Positions 1,033 to 48,703 of a stretch of DNA of 57,901 nucleotides are shown here, in pieces. The DNA is taken from the IMG/VR virus record IMGVR_UViG_3300047550_004781, positions 1-57,901 of that record; one strand, written 5' to 3'. The position numbers were made by a program, and so were the translations under genes. The notes below the pieces were generated by a model. It did not search any database. It worked only from the letters and a program-made list of their open reading frames with translations, and was not told the DNA's origin. The DNA is from a virus. Taxonomy: Duplodnaviria > Caudoviricetes. The first letter of the stretch is position 1, and each line of letters starts with the position of its first letter.

Positions 1033-1219
1033 AAATGCAATACCAACACTAACCCGTTAGATGGCAAGGTTGAGGTGCCAATAGTCCGATTGGCCGTCTG
1101 TGGATCAATCCCCAGCAAATTCAAACACTTGCTGCTCATGTATTTTGTGTGGGTGAGGCATAATTTTGGTTGACATTCCTGTCAATCATGCTATTATGCA
1201 CACATAGAGCGAGGATGCA

Positions 1220-7024: not shown

Positions 7025-8143
7025 TTATATTTTTTTAACAGAGGGACTATATGCTCCTCTGTTGCGGATATTGATAGCGCCATTCAAGTCAGCATCTATC
7101 TCAAATCCACAACTCAAACACGAGAATCTTTCGCCTTGGCGTGATTGCTTGTGTTTGACCCCGCATGCACTGCAAGTTTGCGATGTGTATGCTGCATGTA
7201 CGCGAGTTAACCGGACGCCGTTCTCTTCGCATGCATGTTCTATCCTTTGCTGGGCATAACCCACGCGCCAGAATTGATTCTTCCTACCCCAACGATTGCC
7301 TTGCTTGATTTCACTCAAATCTTCCATGACCAAATGGCTGAGTTGATCCCAAGGTATATCGTTTTTGATAGAATAGTTGATTTGGTTTTTGAGTTCAGTT
7401 CTTGCCCTTGCATGAGATTTGCTGCGTTGCTTGCGACGGGCAATTCGTTCTAATATGTCTTTAATTGGTCTACCAGTTGTATGGGTGGTTTCCATGCGTC
7501 CAGTAGAACAAGTGACCAACTTGTTCCGGCCCATGTCTACACCCATGATGGCTTGGTTGGATCGCAAGGTCACAGCCTTGACAAAATAGATACCCAAGCT
7601 ACCATCGGAATTAACACGCAAACAATTGGTTTTCATGACAAAACCACGTCGCATTAGGTCTTGCATGTGACGTGTGGGTGTGAATGGAATATAAAATGAT
7701 TTACTAGGAAATGATGTGATCTTGATCCAATTGGTGGAAATCTTGCTTGTTTTGTTGGGTTGTATGTCAATAAATCTACTATCCAACTCAATGTTCACCG
7801 AGTTGATATCAATGGACAAGCTTTTGTTGTTCCATTTGTCTAATATTTCTTGTTGGTATTTTTGTAGGTTATTGGCTTTTTGAGCTAGTTTGACTTTCTC
7901 TTGAATTGATCTGACTATTGCACTGGCTTGTTTGGCACATACCTGGCTCAACCTAGATGGCAATTGAATCTGATCAGTAACGTCTTTGTTGGCAAATTTG
8001 GTTATTTTATCTTGATATAACTGGTGATCAACTAGTTTTTGTAGTTCTTGTCTATAGATATCAAATGGCCGCATCAACATCAAGTGTTTGATGTGATTGG
8101 CTAGTTTGGGTCTGTAGGTTGATATCCTAGTAATCTTGCTCAT
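7025..8143 (-). CDS. tnpB: TnpB RNA-guided nuclease (IS607)
   Basis: RuvC GVDMG / MEDL / DADLNGAINI and Zn finger CSAC..CLSC. Confidence 0.9.
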   Translation of the reverse strand: MSKITRISTYRPKLANHIKHLMLMRPFDIYRQELQKLVDHQLYQDKITKFANKDVTDQIQLPSRLSQVCAKQASAIVRSIQEKVKLAQKANNLQKYQQEILDKWNNKSLSIDINSVNIELDSRFIDIQPNKTSKISTNWIKITSFPSKSFYIPFTPTRHMQDLMRRGFVMKTNCLRVNSDGSLGIYFVKAVTLRSNQAIMGVDMGRNKLVTCSTGRMETTHTTGRPIKDILERIARRKQRSKSHARARTELKNQINYSIKNDIPWDQLSHLVMEDLSEIKQGNRWGRKNQFWRVGYAQQRIEHACEENGVRLTRVHAAYTSQTCSACGVKHKQSRQGERFSCLSCGFEIDADLNGAINIRNRGAYSPSVKKI

Positions 8144-10425: not shown

Positions 10426-11029
10426 AATCCCTAACAACAATCCAACCCTTACTTGGCCTACTATTTTTGGTGAACATGTGTGCAAGACCTGATTCTGCCA
10501 TAGGATAAGCGGCCTGTAACTGATGTCTGGTGCAATATAGATCACCATGTGTGGGGTGCTGGAAATGATATATCTTATGATCTTGATGTCCCAGCTTCTT
10601 TTTCAACCTGGTTTCGTCGGAATCTTTTGTTCCTGACCTATTTTGTGACATAAGCTTCAAGCTTTCCTGAGTATGTCGCTTTTTATACATATTATTCAAT
10701 ACACCAGGTTTGGAATAATTTTTCCGCTGCTGGCGACTCAATTTCATTCCTGAAACTCCGTCTCCACCATCTGTCCTATTACGCAAGATGCCTGTTCCCA
10801 AATCTTTCCTACCATACCAACGTATTAGCCAACGTTCAAGGGCTAATGCTCCAATTTCTGTTAGATTTTGTTCTATGATTACAATCCTTGACATATTTGA
10901 CGGTAGAGGCATGCACTTATGGTGTTGCCATGCTCGACGCTTTTTGCCCTTGCCAATATAATAAGGTGTATGGTCATGCCTTAAATAGGCATAGACATAA
11001 AATCCAGAAGGATATTGTGATTTTTTCAT
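10424..11029 (-). CDS. free-standing GIY-YIG-type homing endonuclease with NUMOD-like tail
   Basis: FYVYAY...[34 protein letters not shown]. Confidence 0.8.
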
Positions 11030-11098
11030 GCTGAATGCTCCCAATTAGCGTTTAGAGTCGGCGGATATTTCCAGTATCGCGGTCGACAAACCTATTTA
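11027..11098 (-). promoter_or_regulatory. structured leader of the homing endonuclease gene (copy 1)
   Basis: TAAATA followed by a stem-loop and CTCTAAACGCTA..GGAGCATTCAGCATG; a second copy lies at 39988-40058. Confidence 0.55.
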
Positions 11099-36697: not shown

Positions 36698-36985
36698 GTG
36701 AACTACCACAACGCCCCCTGGAGACTGTGACTAGACCGTGGTGGTTGACATATCATATCCTGCCCCTTCTAAGCAGATGCCCGCTTGCCACACAAACTTT
36801 TTGGTCAATTGGAACTGGTTGTAGAGATATTGCCTTGCTCTGTACACAGACTGGACCTCTTGTTCTTGTTGCGGGTTGGATAAATTCGATATCTGTATCG
36901 CAATTTCATATATCTATTTATATAATTCAGTCAATCGCCGCTATCCATCCAGGGGCTAAAGCGCCCTGGCTTTCCGCGGCGGGAC
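36698..36985 (-). mobile_element. 288-bp non-autonomous derivative of the IS1341-like element
   Basis: Intact LE (..CCCGCCGCGGAAAGCCAGGG..), TATAAATA, decayed tnpB start (MKLRYRYRIYP), RE ending GTGGTAGTTCAC. Confidence 0.85.
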
Positions 36986-37096
36986 GTCAAAGTTGATGAA
37001 TATTTCCCTCAAGCAATAGTCAACAATATTGACAAATATTCACATTTGATAATACCAGGCGCACACATTTCAGTGCCTGAATTATTAGATACTTGA
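36986..37096 (+). pseudogene. orphan 3' gene fragment (possibly a glycosyltransferase C-terminus)
   Basis: Open frame VKVDEYFPQAIVNNIDKYSHLIIPG..* with no start, abutting the mini element. Confidence 0.4.
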
Positions 37097-37121: not shown

Positions 37122-37721
37122 ATGCTAAATTGGACTATAGACGATATGCTCATTCAAACCAATCAGAGAAAAGATAGTTTTGAACTGATGCTGAATCATC
37201 TCAAAAATCAATCCAATCCCCTTATTATTGAAACTGGATGTGCTAGATCAATACATGGTAGTTTGGAAATGGGTTTTTATGGTGATGGAAATAGCACCTT
37301 GATTTTTGACAAATTCATAAGCGAACATGGAGGTGAATTGTTTACAGTTGACAAGGATCCTATCCATCTATTGCATACTAAGAGGATGACAGGTCCCCAA
37401 TCAACTCTTGTTTGTCAAGACAGTGTCAAATTTTTATGGGATATGCAGGCAAAATTGGCTGCCCAAGACCAATTTGTTGATCTATTGTATTTAGATAGCT
37501 ATGATTTAGATCCCAAAAATCATCATCCTAGTGCATTGCATCATTTGAAAGAACTACTAGCCATTAGGACTAGGTTAAAATCAGGCAGTATGATTGCAGT
37601 TGATGATAATTTGGGAACTCCCCATAACCGGCAGGGTAAAGGCGCATACATAGAAGAATTCATGCAAAATATTGGAATCCCTCTCAAGTATGACGGTTAT
37701 CAATTAATTTGGGTGCTCTAA
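37122..37721 (+). CDS. class I SAM-dependent methyltransferase
   Basis: IIETG, VD, DS, DLLYLDS, IAVDD, GKG. Confidence 0.8.
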   Translation: MLNWTIDDMLIQTNQRKDSFELMLNHLKNQSNPLIIETGCARSIHGSLEMGFYGDGNSTLIFDKFISEHGGELFTVDKDPIHLLHTKRMTGPQSTLVCQDSVKFLWDMQAKLAAQDQFVDLLYLDSYDLDPKNHHPSALHHLKELLAIRTRLKSGSMIAVDDNLGTPHNRQGKGAYIEEFMQNIGIPLKYDGYQLIWVL

Positions 37722-37730
37722 CGATTTGGG

Positions 37731-37759
37731 CAATCAATCGCCGCTGCGGCGATTGATTG
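37731..37759. repeat. perfect palindrome derived from the IS left-end inner sequence
   Basis: CAATCAATCGCCGC-T-GCGGCGATTGATTG; the arm matches GCGGCGATTGA of the mini-element LE. Confidence 0.65.
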
Positions 37760-37829
37760 AAATATTTGATATATATATATTGCATTTTTGTCAAAGGTCC
37801 TGTACTAATAATATTAGTGATGTAGCAAA

Positions 37830-38027
37830 AGCCCTCACGGCTTGGGATATCCCGGTAGCAATACCGCAGGGACTAGGGCAGGAAGTGCCACGAGTCCGTA
37901 AAAAATATCGCCTGTGGATCGGAACACACCAATGCCTAAACTTATTGGAAAAATAGTGAACTGGAATCTAGCAGGAAGCCACAGCCCTTTAGGGCGTGGT
38001 AGTTCACAAGGTTTAAAATTTGATGTA
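37830..38027 (+). ncRNA. orphan TnpB omegaRNA-like locus (scaffold ends 38007, guide AAGGTTTAAAATTTGATGTA)
   Basis: Shares GGGCAGGAA.TGCC, CGCCTGTGGAT and an identical AGCAGGAAGCCACAGCCCTTTAGGGCGTGGTAGTTCAC with the copy-A omegaRNA; no tnpB ORF. Confidence 0.7.
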
Positions 38028-38139
38028 ATAATCATATATTTGAATGGAAACATATTGATCAAAGTATATGGAAAATCCAAGATCTTGACTTATTCAAGTT
38101 GCTACAACAAACTTATTTGAAAAATACTGGAGATAATTA

Positions 38140-39045
38140 ATGTTTGGACATAATTCAATCGTCGGTCAAAAATATTTTGAGCAAGCTGGTGACAAGCTGT
38201 TTGTGACTTCCATTTTTTTCACACTGCAAGGAGAAGGCCCCTATCGTGGGGAGCCAGCAGTGTTTGTGCGACTGGCCAAATGCCAACTTGCGTGTAGTTT
38301 CTGCGACACTTTTTTCGATGATGGTGATTGGCTGACTATTCCAGAGATTGAACAGATAATTGATGACGAAATCAACAAATATTTTGATGGAAAAGTGCCA
38401 GCATGGGCTGAAGATTATTGGGGTGGGGTTGATTTTGAAGGTGAACCATCTCTAGCGCAATCAGCTTTGAAAAAAAAGGACATGGTGCTAGTGCTAACTG
38501 GTGGCGAACCCATGTTGCAGAAAAATATTGTCCCATTTCTGGAGCGTATGAACAAACGGTTTGCTAAAACTCAGATTGAAAGTAATGGATTAATTGTTCA
38601 AGATATTCCTCCTGAAACAACATTGGTTGTAAGCCCCAAGTGCAGTGAAAAGCAGGGCAAGGCTGTCAAATACTTGGAACCCAAGTCTGAAATGTTGGCT
38701 AGGGCTGATTGTTTGAAGTTTGTGATGAGCGCTGATCCAGATAGCCCTTATACCAGTATACCACAATGGGCACATGATTGGCACGAGAAAACTGGCAAGC
38801 CTGTGTTTGTAAGTCCCATGAACATATACAATCAAGAGCCGCAAAAGAGCAAACAACTGCGAGCTCAAAAAAATCAAATCACGCTAGAAGAGCGCAGCAC
38901 AGTTGACGAAAAAATTAGTTTTTGGACTCCTGGTCTTTTGAATATGCAAGTCAATCAACAAAATCACGAATATGCAGCTGGTTATGCACTCAAACATGGG
39001 CTTATTTTTCAAGTGCAAATCCATTTGCTGGCAAGCATGGCTTGA
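38140..39045 (+). CDS. queE: 7-carboxy-7-deazaguanine synthase (radical SAM)
   Basis: FFTLQGEG, CQLACSFCDT, LTGGEP, IESNG, VSPK, QIH. Confidence 0.92.
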   Translation: MFGHNSIVGQKYFEQAGDKLFVTSIFFTLQGEGPYRGEPAVFVRLAKCQLACSFCDTFFDDGDWLTIPEIEQIIDDEINKYFDGKVPAWAEDYWGGVDFEGEPSLAQSALKKKDMVLVLTGGEPMLQKNIVPFLERMNKRFAKTQIESNGLIVQDIPPETTLVVSPKCSEKQGKAVKYLEPKSEMLARADCLKFVMSADPDSPYTSIPQWAHDWHEKTGKPVFVSPMNIYNQEPQKSKQLRAQKNQITLEERSTVDEKISFWTPGLLNMQVNQQNHEYAAGYALKHGLIFQVQIHLLASMA

Positions 39046-39923: not shown

Positions 39924-39987
39924 AACGAACATGATCCTGTTTGACATAATCAGAATGTGCTTTTAAGATGGCTTGGTGATGCAATAT

Positions 39988-40058
39988 CATGCTGAATGCT
40001 CCTGAATAGCGTTTAGAGTGGTCAGCTTGGTTGTAGACTCGTGGACCACACTTATTAA
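39988..40058 (-). promoter_or_regulatory. orphan copy of the homing-endonuclease leader motif
   Basis: CATGCTGAATGCTCC....TAGCGTTTAGAGT shared with 11027-11058. Confidence 0.55.
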
Positions 40059-43839: not shown

Positions 43840-45039
43840 ATGAGCACCAAGATCAACACAATTACGTCAGTGAGCCCCAGCCGGCTCAAGAGTATGATTA
43901 TTCATTCGATTGAAAGGCGTAGGCCTTTGTTCATCAGTGGTCCTCCAGGCATTGGCAAGAGTGATGTGGTTGCAGAAGTAGCACGCATGCAGAACCGTCC
44001 ATTGATTGACATTCGGCTTCCACTGCTGGAAGCCACTGATATTCGTGGTCTGCCACACTTGGCAGAAGTGACTATTCGTGATGCAGAAGGCAATCTGGTC
44101 ATGAACGAGAGCAACGTGCCTCTTACTGAAAAGGTGTTCAAGTGGAGCACGCCCAGCGATCTGCCCACTGATCCCAACAGCAGGGCATTGGTGTTTTTTG
44201 ATGAGATGAGTTCTGCCCCGCCCTCAGTGCAGGCTGCAACCTATCAGATCATTCTCAATCGAAAGATTGGCACATATGAGCTGCCTGATGATGTGGTGAT
44301 TGTGGCAGCCGGCAACCGTGTCAAGGACAAGGGGGTTGCCTACAACATGCCCACACCCCTGGCCAATCGTTTCATTCATACTACTCTGCATGTGGATTTT
44401 GACGATTGGCAGGAATGGGCCATTCTCAATCGCATCCATCAGGATGTTGTGGGTTACCTTACCTTTCAGCCCAATGACCTGTTTGATTTTGATCCACGTC
44501 GAGAAAGCTATGCTTTTGCTACGCCACGTAGTTGGAGTTTTGTGAGTGATCTCATCTACGAACGCAAGGCAGATGGAACCCTGGGTGACACAAGCCTACC
44601 TGCTGACATCCTGGGCGACATGATCAAGGGCACAGTGGGTGAAGGACCTGCCATCAAATTCCTTACCTATCGCAAGCAGGCAAACAACTTGCCTCGTGCC
44701 CGGGATATCCTGGATGGTACTGTTACCCAGCTCAAGGTCAAGCAAATTGACATCATGTATTCGTTGAGCACCAGCCTTGTTTATGCACTCATGGATGACA
44801 ACAACAAGGCTGTGGCAGCAGCCAAGAATGGGGACAAAAATAGTCATGTCACAGTGTTTGAGCACACCAACAATTTTTTCCAGTTTATCATGGATAACTT
44901 TGAAGATGAGCTGGTAGTGATGGCTGCGCGATCGTTTATGCTGAGCACACGCACCAACCCAATTCGTGTAAACATGATCAAGAATTGGCCAACGTTTGTG
45001 AAAAAATACAGTCAACTGCTACCCAGCTTTAATTACTGA
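43840..45039 (+). CDS. MoxR-like AAA+ ATPase
   Basis: GPPGIGKS, FFDE, AAGN, PLANRF, TPRSW. Confidence 0.9.
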   Translation: MSTKINTITSVSPSRLKSMIIHSIERRRPLFISGPPGIGKSDVVAEVARMQNRPLIDIRLPLLEATDIRGLPHLAEVTIRDAEGNLVMNESNVPLTEKVFKWSTPSDLPTDPNSRALVFFDEMSSAPPSVQAATYQIILNRKIGTYELPDDVVIVAAGNRVKDKGVAYNMPTPLANRFIHTTLHVDFDDWQEWAILNRIHQDVVGYLTFQPNDLFDFDPRRESYAFATPRSWSFVSDLIYERKADGTLGDTSLPADILGDMIKGTVGEGPAIKFLTYRKQANNLPRARDILDGTVTQLKVKQIDIMYSLSTSLVYALMDDNNKAVAAAKNGDKNSHVTVFEHTNNFFQFIMDNFEDELVVMAARSFMLSTRTNPIRVNMIKNWPTFVKKYSQLLPSFNY

Positions 45040-45051
45040 AACACTGACAAG

Positions 45052-45085
45052 GGAGCCACAGCCCTAGAGGGCTGTGGTAGTTCAC
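45052..45085 (+). mobile_element. isolated IS right-end remnant
   Basis: GGAGCCACAGCCCTAGAGGGCTGTGGTAGTTCAC between the ATPase and VWA genes. Confidence 0.75.
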
Positions 45086-46545: not shown

Positions 46546-46600
46546 AAAAAAGAGCCTACAGATTCAAGGGCTCTAGCCCTCTGGCTTTCCGCGGCGAGCA
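46546..46600 (-). mobile_element. isolated IS left-end remnant
   Basis: Reverse complement TTAT|TGCTCGCCGCGGAAAGCCAGAGGGCTAGAGCCCTTG. Confidence 0.7.
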
Positions 46601-48020: not shown

Positions 48021-48047
48021 GGTGAACTACCACAGTGATAGTTCACC
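48021..48047. repeat. palindrome of two IS right-end motifs
   Basis: GGTGAACTACCAC-A-GTGATAGTTCACC (one mismatch). Confidence 0.65.
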
Positions 48048-48628
48048 TAAGAGCCTGTTTTCCAACCATCTTCCTATATTGACATACATGTTTCCCGCAA
48101 TATTATATTGAATATAACCACTATAGATTATCAACTAGGCTAGCCAAATTGACCAGTTTTTTATTTATGTTTGGACTACTGAATTTGGTCACTCCTGTTA
48201 TATGGGTTTGGAAAAATCTAGATAATTTGACAAATATCAATCTGCAACAAAGACTGACCATGCACAAATTATGGATAAGTGGGTTTGTTTTTTTGCTTGC
48301 TAGTGCAATCATGTGGATGATGTAGAATGTTCTGGGCATTGTTGGCTGTAGGTGTTTGGCTAATGGTGGGATTATTGTGTATTACATATTATGGCCACTG
48401 CCATATTTGTGGACTGGACGCGAGGACTAGACTTCACGTTGGGTGACTTTTGCCTAATGTTGATACTGATTCCATTTGGGTTGTTATTTGTGTTTTGGTT
48501 TTTGGTGGAAGTTTGGGAAGACAAGATGGGAAAAATTTATAAAAACAAAAACAAAATCATATTAAGTGCCAGAAAAAGTGCCAAGATGCACAAGGCACTG
48601 ATTGCTGACAACTGGCCCAGCTAATCCA

Positions 48629-48676
48629 GTGAACTACTGTTGGTCTAAAGACACAACAGGCTTGCGCGGCGAAGGA
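48629..48676 (-). mobile_element. 48-bp LE/RE-fused minimal derivative of the IS605-type element
   Basis: Reverse complement TTTAG|TCCTTCGCCGCGCAAGCCTGTTGTGTCTTTAGACCAACAG-TAGTTCAC = LE of 11100 joined at the hairpin to the RE tail. Confidence 0.85.
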
Positions 48677-48703
48677 CTAAATTATACAAAGAGGATATGG
48701 TCA

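What the first reader, a model, noticed from the sequence alone, without database searches (positions are those of the whole stretch)
37731..38027. Stand-alone omegaRNA gene with its own guide inside the DNA-modification cluster
Seen: the last 38 nt of the scaffold (AGCAGGAAG...GTAGTTCAC) are identical to those of the pol-embedded element, and the upstream boxes GGGCAGGAA-TGCC and CGCCTGTGGAT are kept. The stem between them is different, extra 5' hairpins are present (e.g. CGGTA-GCAA-TACCG), and no tnpB ORF remains. An AT-rich promoter-like stretch precedes it (TTGCAT/TTGTCA..TAATAT). Inference: keeping the structural boxes while losing the coding sequence suggests a trans-acting guide RNA (guide AAGGTTTAAAATTTGATGTA) for the TnpB proteins encoded elsewhere. 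That would be a phage multi-guide, CRISPR-like system that could target competing phages, empty alleles or the host. I found no match to the guide in this window by eye.
Basis: partly seen in the sequence, partly recalled or inferred. Interest (0 to 1): 0.8.

Follow-up and report, generated by a model that had tools for sequence, protein, structure and literature searches.

The report
Stranded TnpB-less guide-RNA mini-transposon in phage
This is a gene-less miniature copy of the guide-RNA transposons that litter this freshwater phage: a known kind of stand-alone guide-RNA element that has lost its mobile left end, and it is not a CRISPR-like defence system.

Summary
Window 37970-38007 is letter-for-letter the right end of the polymerase-embedded TnpB element. 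The conserved boxes, a different middle stem and the extra 5' hairpins are all present, and no tnpB coding sequence remains.

It is not a one-off gene. It belongs to a family of miniature IS200/IS605-type elements. Four other copies were found, three in viral record G003 and one in locus L081, each with a different flank. Metagenome contigs also diverge exactly at 38007.

A full family copy consists of:
- a TTAC motif and a left-end hairpin
- a promoter-like stretch, TTGCAT, 16-17 nt, TATAA(T/A)
- a guide-RNA (omegaRNA) scaffold of about 195 nt
- a right end finishing in TCAC

The window copy has lost its left-end hairpin and TTAC, so it is probably immobile. Its -10 box has changed. Its RNA module is intact apart from one mismatch in the pseudoknot.

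The "guide" is simply the DNA flanking the right end, as in any such transposon. I found no target beyond chance.

Stand-alone omegaRNAs and PATE-like elements are already in print. Use of this RNA in trans by the phage's TnpB, for homing against insert-free sibling phages, is plausible but untested. No RNA data were available.

The parts
37731..37759 (+). Perfect 14+14 palindrome just after the stop of the upstream methyltransferase-like gene. Its right arm continues into sequence that aligns with the inner left end of the family. The left-end hairpin and the TTAC motif are missing.
   Evidence: Sequence read. Alignments A2 and A8 show a gap where the other copies have the hairpin GCCAGGG...CCCTGGATGG. 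No TTAC in 37700-37745.
37780..37815 (+). Promoter-like stretch. TTGCAT (-35) is kept, but the family's -10 box TATAA(T/A) reads TACTAA here. An alternative is TTGTCA-16-AATATT.
   Evidence: Consensus scan. Five-copy alignment. 9 of 31 window-private changes here against 8 of 172 in the RNA part.
37815..38007 (+). OmegaRNA scaffold of about 193 nt. Its pieces are: 5' hairpins at 37829-37843, 37844-37853 and 37854-37865; an outer stem 37870-37874 with 37893-37897; the first hairpin 37876-37889 with loop GGAAG; the box CGCCTGTGGAT at 37909-37919; a family-specific middle stem; the long-range helix CCUGU/GCAGG; the terminal hairpin; and the right end finishing in TCAC.
   Evidence: Folds. Pair counts. 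Covariance-model hits of 114.6 bits with R1 (trained on it) and 50.6 bits with R2 (not trained on it).
37970..38007 (+). 38 nt identical to the right end of the polymerase-embedded TnpB element.
   Evidence: The same 38-mer occurs in 7 stretches of other viral contigs with three kinds of upstream sequence.
38008..38027 (+). Flanking DNA that would form the guide of the RNA.
   Evidence: It lies directly after the right-end boundary. Target searches.
23786..25074 (+). Full-length TnpB element A, the likely protein partner. It consists of TTAC, the left end, tnpB at 23866-25059, and an omegaRNA/right end at 24950-25074.
   Evidence: Pfam OrfB_IS605, Cas12f1-like_TNB and HTH_OrfB_IS605. E 2e-53 to solved ISDra2 TnpB chains. 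Left-end junction read.
56815..57901 (+). Second copy of the same TnpB element (C), cut by the end of the window.
   Evidence: Repeat D1, 93% identical over 300 nt. Pfam. TTAC junction read.
11096..12832 (.). IS605-like pair. tnpA (Y1 transposase) lies at 11096-11611 on the minus strand. tnpB B lies at 11583-12827 on the plus strand, with its omegaRNA ending at 12832. This is a possible source of transposase acting in trans.
   Evidence: PF01797 at E 2.2e-27. PHROG transposase. 38% identity between TnpB B and TnpB A. R2 hit of 40.1 bits.

Best explanation
The segment is a stranded member of a family of miniature, TnpB-less IS200/IS605-type transposons. These are also called stand-alone omegaRNA elements or PATE-like elements.

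**Family layout.** An intact copy consists of a TTAC target motif, a left-end hairpin, a sigma-70-like promoter, an omegaRNA scaffold of about 195 nt, and a right end finishing in TCAC.

**How the family most likely works (inferred).**
1. A Y1 transposase supplied in trans moves the copies. One is encoded at 11096-11611.
2. The omegaRNA carries the flanking DNA as its guide and loads onto a TnpB made elsewhere in the phage (elements A and C).
3. The complex cuts the insert-free allele, TTAC followed by the flank, in sister or co-infecting genomes.
4. Repair from the occupied genome restores or spreads the insert.

**The window copy.** It has lost its left-end hairpin and TTAC, and its original -10 box has changed. 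It can probably no longer move. Its RNA module is intact apart from one G-G mismatch in the pseudoknot. If it is transcribed, it could still direct TnpB against insert-free relatives at the methyltransferase/QueE spacer.

**Shown here:** family membership, element boundaries, RNA structure, loss of the left end, and the presence of tnpB and tnpA genes on the contig.

**Inferred, not shown:** transcription, TnpB binding, cleavage and homing.
For: **Family membership.**
- Three places in viral record G003 are 86-88% identical over 228-255 nt (E 1e-74 to 4e-80).
- A fifth copy lies in L081.
- All five have different flanks.
- Among the fetched pieces of G001, G002 and G003, only transposon parts match the window at the DNA level.

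**TTAC junctions.** TTAC precedes the left end in 2 of 5 mini copies and in both full elements, A and C.

**Boundary at 38007.** Metagenome contigs diverge there.

**RNA structure.**
- 96.4% of 221 cells are paired, and 8 of 23 pairs changed on both sides. None of 500 shuffles reached these values.
- Pseudoknot pairing: 12 of 12 omegaRNAs with a loop ending in C have GTTCAC at the 3' end. Of the 5 minis, whose loop is GGAAG, 3 have the compensating CTTCAC.
- Model R2, built without any mini copy, scores the window copy at 50.6 bits. For comparison it gives 40.1 to the TnpB-B omegaRNA and 27 to a decayed remnant at 53585-53706.
- Among 4 mini copies, 11 of 116 paired columns vary against 23 of 82 unpaired columns (p 0.001). 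The window's 4 private changes in paired columns comprise 3 that keep the pair and 1 single-base deletion.

**It is an insertion.** In 8 syntenic relatives the methyltransferase-QueE spacer is about 60 nt, and 0 of 35 QueE loci hold the element.

**Protein partners.** TnpB A aligns along its length with ISDra2-type TnpB, with D, E and D motifs in place. A tnpA gene is present.

**Literature (passages read).**
- PATEs often encode omegaRNAs that need TnpB in trans (10.1101/2023.03.14.532601).
- Stand-alone omegaRNAs are mobilised and work in trans (PMC10691335).
Against: - **The left end is gone.** The hairpin and TTAC are absent, so the homing model can only apply against alleles that still carry the ancestral empty site. 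No such allele was found. The closest syntenic relatives share only about 51% (methyltransferase) and 68-72% (QueE) amino-acid identity, and their spacers do not align with this one.
- **The promoter has changed.** The -10 box kept in the other 4 copies is altered here. The promoter-like stretch carries 9 of 31 private changes against 8 of 172 in the RNA (p 1.5e-4). That fits loss of the element's own expression as well as it fits selection on the RNA.
- **Pseudoknot mismatch.** One of four pseudoknot pairs is G-G in this copy.
- **Recombination could mimic conservation.** The 3' 38 nt may have been homogenised by recombination with element A, which would keep the RNA looking intact without any selection.
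- **Limits of the structure statistics.** They rest on 4-5 mini copies, and the consensus structure was derived from the same sequences.
- **Alternative reading of the covariation.** The position that covaries with the loop lies in the DNA right end, so it could reflect a constraint at the DNA level (transposase) instead of in the RNA.
Confidence: 0.6

Rival explanations
1. It is an inert relic. The mini element inserted, lost its left end and promoter, and is now non-functional. Its RNA part looks intact only because it is young or because recombination with the other right ends in the genome keeps refreshing it.
For: - The left-end hairpin and TTAC are lost and the -10 box has changed.
- The pseudoknot has a G-G mismatch.
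- The exact 38-nt identity to element A, where the closest mini copy L081 differs at 4 of these positions (columns 302, 314, 318 and 333 of A8), suggests gene conversion.
- The window holds other relics at every stage of decay: 36698-36993(-), 44971-45085, 48629-48666(-), 53585-53706(-).
Against: - Private changes are 6-fold rarer per site in the RNA than in the promoter-like stretch.
- None of the window's private substitutions in paired columns breaks a pair.
- Gene conversion by element A can explain only the last 38 nt or so, because the rest of the scaffold differs from A.
Confidence: 0.3
2. It has been domesticated as a cis-acting expression signal. The 5' palindrome would terminate the methyltransferase-like gene. 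The promoter and structured leader would drive or tune the downstream QueE-like radical-SAM gene.
For: - All 5 mini copies lie in intergenic DNA, point the same way as the next gene and sit upstream of it: 13-14 nt upstream in the three G003 copies (read by eye), 75 nt in L081 and 132 nt here.
- Four of the 5 carry a near-consensus promoter.
Against: - The QueE-like gene keeps the promoter-like motif shared with insert-free relatives (TTGACTT...CTACAACAAA, from about 38078).
- The window copy is the one whose -10 box is damaged.
- The palindrome has no T-run after it and was not called as a terminator.
- Shared orientation is also expected from the strand-specific insertion of this transposon type and from dense, co-oriented phage genes.
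Confidence: 0.07
3. It is part of a CRISPR-like multi-guide system. The phage would keep stand-alone guides aimed at the host or at unrelated competing phages.
For: - Several TnpB genes lie on one contig.
- There are several guide-bearing elements with different flanks.
Against: - The guide is the native flank of a transposon end.
- There are no repeats or array.
- The 20-mer guide has 3 exact matches in viral contigs, all in unrelated coding DNA and none preceded by TTAC.
- TTAC plus 16 nt gave 1 match in 596 billion bases of genomes. By my own arithmetic about 1 is expected by chance. It gave 0 in viral contigs.
Confidence: 0.03

Closest known systems
Stand-alone omegaRNAs of OMEGA systems, described in the introduction of Altae-Tran et al., PNAS 2023 (PMC10691335), citing their 2021 work. 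I read passages only.
   Same: - An omegaRNA scaffold with a guide and no effector or transposase gene beside it.
- It lies in the same genome as effector-bearing loci.
- It is evidently mobilised, with multiple copies and different flanks.
   Different: - It sits on a phage contig.
- The family carries its own promoter-like box.
- This particular copy has lost the left end.
- Activity in trans is not shown here.
PATE-like (palindrome-associated) non-autonomous IS200/IS605 elements, Meers et al. 2023 (10.1101/2023.03.14.532601). I read passages only.
   Same: - Short, and not protein-coding.
- Bounded by IS200/IS605-type left and right ends.
- Encodes an omegaRNA that needs TnpB, and a TnpA, supplied in trans.
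   Different: - The window copy lacks the left-end palindrome, so it fails the 'two ends' criterion.
- Those elements were described in a bacterial chromosome, not in a phage.
ISDra2-type TnpB with its omegaRNA (solved chains 8bf8, 8exa and 8h1j)
   Same: - TnpB A matches these proteins at E 2e-53.
- The RNA ends at the transposon right end, with the guide taken from the flank.
- The layout contains a pseudoknot. That ISDra2's RNA also has one is my recollection, not a call result.
   Different: - No sequence similarity of the RNA to any Rfam model.
- The flanking motif is TTAC here.
- In the stand-alone copy the RNA is not embedded in the 3' end of tnpB.
Free-standing homing endonucleases of T-even phages, which cause localized marker exclusion (review PMC13565253; passages read)
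   Same: The proposed outcome is the same. A nuclease encoded by one phage cuts the insert-free allele of a co-infecting relative, so the insert and its neighbours are copied across. The review lists 'transposon non-restorative homing' among co-infecting phages as a category.
   Different: Target recognition would be by RNA guide plus TTAC, not by protein. Nothing was tested here.

Membership tests
TnpB omegaRNA (right-end guide RNA of IS200/IS605) | The scaffold ends exactly at the transposon right end, and the guide is the flanking DNA. | tested here: met
   Homology among the 5 copies stops at 38007. Contigs from 4 runs diverge there.
TnpB omegaRNA (right-end guide RNA of IS200/IS605) | Conserved secondary structure shared with TnpB-linked copies, supported by covariation. 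| tested here: met
   96.4% of cells paired, 8 of 23 pairs changed on both sides, 0 of 500 shuffles as high. R2 score 50.6 bits, E about 1e-9. One pseudoknot pair is G-G in this copy.
TnpB omegaRNA (right-end guide RNA of IS200/IS605) | Encoded within or overlapping the 3' end of a tnpB gene. | tested here: not met
   No tblastn hit better than E 0.08 in 37600-38140. The two boxes lie in different reading frames relative to element A. This is why it is filed as 'stand-alone'.
TnpB omegaRNA (right-end guide RNA of IS200/IS605) | The RNA is made, binds TnpB and guides DNA cleavage beside the flanking motif. | not testable with these tools
   No RNA data: the tool marked the two RNA-labelled runs 'probably DNA'.
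PATE-like / miniature IS200/IS605 element | Short, non-coding, multi-copy, with different flanks. | tested here: met
   5 copies in 3 viral records. Frame-breaking indels between copies. Many loose ends in metagenomes.
PATE-like / miniature IS200/IS605 element | Both subterminal hairpin ends are present, with the left end preceded by the target motif. | tested here: not met
   The window copy lacks the left-end hairpin and TTAC. Both are intact in G003_26k and G003_15k. They are partly lost in G003_51k and L081. The family meets this criterion; this copy does not.
PATE-like / miniature IS200/IS605 element | A compatible Y1 transposase is available in trans. | tested here: inconclusive
   A Y1_Tnp gene is at 11096-11611 (E 2.2e-27), and another lies beside an A-type tnpB in G002. 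Compatibility with these ends was not tested.
CRISPR-like guide array | Repeat-spacer organisation, or guides that match foreign targets. | tested here: not met
   There is one scaffold with one flank. Target searches are at chance level.
TldR-type guide-RNA regulators (nuclease-dead TnpB) | The partner TnpB lacks the RuvC catalytic residues. | tested here: not met
   TnpB A shows the D, E and D motifs aligned with an ISDra2-like chain. That these positions are the catalytic ones is my recollection. The other TnpBs were not checked.

The most novel reading that the evidence does not exclude
Freshwater jumbo phages carry a family of promoter-equipped, TnpB-less omegaRNA satellites that borrow the phage's own TnpB and TnpA. 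After losing its left end, the stranded copy would be kept as a fixed RNA-guided 'marker-exclusion' weapon. It would cut insert-free sibling phages at the methyltransferase/QueE spacer during co-infection and drag the neighbouring 7-deazaguanine-modification genes along with it. The compensating pseudoknot change, seen only inside the TnpB-less lineage (3 of 5 copies), would then be direct evidence that stand-alone omegaRNAs are under selection as RNAs.
Probability: 0.2. Interest if true: 0.7.

Novelty: new member of a known kind. Interest (0 to 1): 0.4.

Why it matters
Stand-alone omegaRNAs are known, but the PNAS 2023 passage I read says their biological role is unknown.

This is a compact natural case on a phage. 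One contig holds four tnpB genes, a tnpA gene and several gene-less derivatives at different stages of decay. Sister copies in other phages allow comparison.

Phage co-infection is a setting in which RNA-guided homing between genomes could be measured directly.

For the scan itself, the main lesson is that an "orphan guide RNA" beside a transposon-rich region should first be read as a miniature transposon whose guide is simply its flank.

Tried and rejected
**Searches that found nothing**
- Rfam: no family at gathering score in the whole window. Only chance-level rows appeared at E up to 10 for the stand-alone copy and for the TnpB-linked omegaRNA. Rfam therefore has no model for this RNA type, and the blank says nothing.
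- Phage GenBank collection, blastn of 37700-38140: no match.
- Metagenome contigs: two exact patterns from the mini family gave 0 stretches each.
- Exact 25-mer of the family in viral contigs: found only in G003.

**Guide targets**
- The 20-mer has 3 exact viral matches in unrelated coding DNA, none preceded by TTAC. One of them (L027) extends to 25 of 26 letters, inside what looks like a helicase motif-II region. I treat it as chance.
- TTAC plus 16 nt: 1 genome match (a Bacilli MAG) and 0 viral matches.

**Expression**
- No RNA holder was listed.
- The two runs labelled RNA-Seq are kept as contigs and are marked 'probably DNA'. They give no evidence either way.

**Population data**
- Run X3 holds the same phage with 0 differences. 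The assembly breaks at the repeats, so no contig bridging an empty site was seen.
- Parts of the stretch without cover in X7, X19 and X20 mean nothing.

**Empty site in relatives**
- The spacers of 8 syntenic loci do not align with the flank.

**Other**
- I considered and dropped a reading as a protein-coding small ORF (37726-37956 and others). Copies differ by single-base indels.
- Supplementary files of papers were not consulted. The extended-data figures of Meers et al. on PATEs may bear on how similar those elements are.

Full report
**Observation**

None of 100 shuffles gave two matches.

The first site is the right end of a TnpB element. Its tnpB gene is at 23866-25059 and has Pfam OrfB_IS605, Cas12f1-like_TNB and HTH_OrfB_IS605 domains. 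This element interrupts a family-B DNA polymerase gene.

The pairwise alignment confirms the two conserved boxes, a 15-nt insertion between them and an unrelated middle segment. Both RNAs fold into the same layout. tblastn with three of the window's TnpBs (the 7025-8143, 11583-12827 and 23866-25059 genes) finds no coding remnant in 37600-38140; the best E-value is 0.08.

**Setting**

The window is a 57.9-kb viral record that CheckV rates 15% complete. Relatives of its QueE-like gene lie on viral contigs of up to 455 kb. The record is rich in transposons:
- tnpB genes at 7025-8143(-), 11583-12827, 23866-25059 and 56893 to the window end
- a Y1 transposase gene, tnpA, at 11096-11611(-)
- a 300-nt internally deleted element at 36698-36993(-), with a complete left end and the first codons of tnpB
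- shorter end remnants at 44971-45085, 46560-46600(-), 48629-48666(-) and 53585-53706(-)

The left ends of elements A and C both follow TTAC. All right ends finish in TCAC. The window's only near-match to TTAC plus the guide is the element's own TCAC-plus-guide junction. This fits the known arrangement of a flanking motif and a slightly different element-internal motif described by Meers et al. (passages read).

**What the segment is**

A DNA search of five related viral records found three places in G003 that are 86-88% identical to window 37754/37780-38007. A gapped pattern search found a fifth copy in L081.

Aligned, an intact family copy has this layout:
1. TTAC
2. a left end with the hairpin GCCAGGG...CCCTGG
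3. TTGCAT, 16-17 nt, TATAA(T/A)
4. about 195 nt of structured RNA
5. GTGGTA(G/C)TTCAC

Similarity ends abruptly after that, and the flanks differ. Copies also differ by single-base indels, so they are not protein-coding.

Among the fetched pieces of G001, G002 and G003, only transposon parts match the window at the DNA level. The copies therefore reached different phages by movement, not by descent at one locus.

In four metagenome runs, contigs pile up on this repeat and leave it at 38007 into many different sequences.

In 8 distant syntenic relatives the methyltransferase-QueE spacer is about 60 nt, and none of 35 QueE loci holds the element. The segment is therefore an insertion.

**State of the window copy**

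- The left-end hairpin and TTAC are missing. A perfect 14+14 palindrome (37731-37759) stands in their place, and its right arm continues into the inner left end.
- The -35 box is kept, but the -10 box reads TACTAA.
- At columns where the three G003 copies agree, the window differs at 9 of 31 promoter-region columns against 8 of 172 RNA columns (Fisher p 1.5e-4).
- Of its private RNA changes, 4 lie in paired columns. Three of these keep the pair and one is a single-base deletion that shortens a hairpin.

**RNA structure**

On ten sequences (six TnpB-linked, four mini), I specified four helices, including a pseudoknot between the first hairpin's loop and the last bases of the scaffold. These are 96.4% paired, and 8 of 23 pairs changed on both sides. 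None of 500 shuffles reached these values, and shifted registers give 35-45% paired.

Across 17 distinct omegaRNA-like sequences:
- All 12 whose loop ends in C have GTTCAC at the 3' end.
- The loop GGAAG is confined to the 5 mini copies. Three of them have the compensating CTTCAC.
- The window copy and one G003 copy have an uncompensated G-G.

By my own hand calculation, the association of 3 of 5 against 0 of 12 gives Fisher p of about 0.015.

A covariance model built only from the six TnpB-linked RNAs gives these scores:

| Sequence | Bits |
|---|---|
| Window stand-alone copy | 50.6 |
| G003 mini copies | 34-41 |
| OmegaRNA of the window's TnpB B | 40.1 |
| Decayed remnant at 53585-53706 | 27 |

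Within four mini copies, 11 of 116 paired columns vary against 23 of 82 unpaired columns (p 0.001).

Caveats:
- There are few sequences.
- The structure was derived from the same data.
- E-values from the shortened calibration are rough.
- The covarying 3' base is also part of the DNA right end.

**Guide**

The 20 nt after 38007 are simply the flank.
- The exact 20-mer occurs in three unrelated viral contigs, in coding DNA, without TTAC in front.
- TTAC plus 16 nt occurs once in 596 billion bases of genomes, where I expect about one by chance, and not at all in viral contigs.
- Nothing in the window matches apart from the element's own junction.

**Mechanism**

- **What is shown:** identity as a stranded miniature IS200/IS605 element with an intact omegaRNA module, and co-residence with tnpB and tnpA genes. 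TnpB A matches solved ISDra2 TnpB at E 2e-53, and D, E and D motifs align in the printed alignment to the ISDra2-like chain 9yyg.
- **What is inferred from the literature:** such RNAs load onto TnpB made elsewhere and direct cleavage of the insert-free site, so that repair restores or spreads the insert. The sources, of which I read passages only, are:
  - Meers et al.
  - Altae-Tran et al.
  - the 2026 review, which lists homing between co-infecting phages
- **For this copy:** I put use as a trans guide at roughly one in three.
  - Against it stand the changed promoter and the pseudoknot mismatch.
  - The exact 38-nt identity to element A also counts against it. The closest mini copy, L081, differs at four of those positions, which points to recombination and not to selection.

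**Comparison and verdict**

This is a new member of a known kind: stand-alone omegaRNAs, or PATE-like elements. There is no array, no foreign target and no sign of a CRISPR-like role.

Points of moderate interest:
- the phage setting
- the family's own promoter
- compensation of the pseudoknot within a TnpB-less lineage
- the presence of every stage of decay on one contig

Expression remains untested, because no RNA holder was available.

Noticed in passing
window 36698-36993 (-): A second miniature element lies 730 nt upstream on the other strand. It has a complete left end, the first ~40 nt of tnpB and a diverged right end finishing in GTGGTAGTTCAC. Its flanking motif reads TTGAC, not TTAC. 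Its omegaRNA part scores only 12 bits.
   Followed up: partly
window 21486-26597: TnpB element A sits inside the family-B DNA polymerase gene, just after a stretch that matches the intein splicing domain (polymerase residues 693-768). The polymerase is left as separate ORFs at 21486-23816, 25063-25599 and 25572-26597. Whether the enzyme is reconstituted, for example by intein trans-splicing, is open.
   Followed up: no
window 11096-12832: An apparently autonomous IS605-like unit. It has divergent tnpA (Y1) and tnpB genes (38% identical to TnpB A), and an omegaRNA that shares the boxes and the terminal TAGTTCAC but has a compensated first hairpin and terminal hairpin.
   Followed up: partly
window 7025-8143 (-): A fourth TnpB-like gene (Cas12f1-like_TNB, weak OrfB_IS605). 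The omegaRNA model finds nothing next to it, so it probably belongs to a different element family.
   Followed up: no
window 44971-45085; 46560-46600(-); 48022-48046; 48629-48666(-); 53585-53706(-): Remnants of transposon ends lie in intergenic spacers: a perfect terminal hairpin plus TAGTTCAC after the AAA-ATPase gene, a left-end fragment, a palindrome made of two facing right-end tips, a right-end tip just upstream of the IMPDH gene, and a decayed tnpB-3'/omegaRNA remnant.
   Followed up: partly
window 48602-50596: The IMP dehydrogenase gene carries Hint/intein domain matches at residues ~336-479. This is a second intein-bearing gene on the contig.
   Followed up: no
L003 10740-10960: A different, short-scaffold omegaRNA with the same 38-nt end has no tnpB upstream and sits behind TTGACT-16-TATGAT in a high-GC viral contig. 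Its flank is a 31-nt unit repeated twice in tandem (96% match), overlapping the start of a DNA methyltransferase-like ORF. The guide therefore nearly matches the gene's own start.
   Followed up: partly
L074 (G003 copy near 15 kb), flank after the right end: About 44 nt of the flank, including the ribosome-binding site and the start of the next gene, is repeated roughly 100 nt downstream. The repeat is preceded by ...GATCAC, which may be a trace of an older right end.
   Followed up: no
L072-L074, L081, window 38008-38139: All 5 mini copies lie upstream of the next gene and point the same way. The distance is 13-14 nt in the three G003 copies, 75 nt in L081 and 132 nt in the window. This could reflect an insertion bias or a role as a promoter.
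   Followed up: partly
L081 9434-9545: In this copy the outer left end is replaced by an inverted partial omegaRNA of another subtype. The result is two right-end modules head to head.
   Followed up: no
window 1164-1215, 54428-54479, 54727-54778: Three copies of a 52-nt promoter-like repeat (TTGACA...17...TAT(T/G/A)(A/T)T). These are probably phage promoters.
   Followed up: no
window 11026-11058 and 39987-40019: A 33-nt repeat, 91% identical. On the minus strand it reads as a ribosome-binding site plus ATG. One copy is at the left side of the tnpA/tnpB unit and the other is in the spacer before the 5'-3' exonuclease gene.
   Followed up: partly
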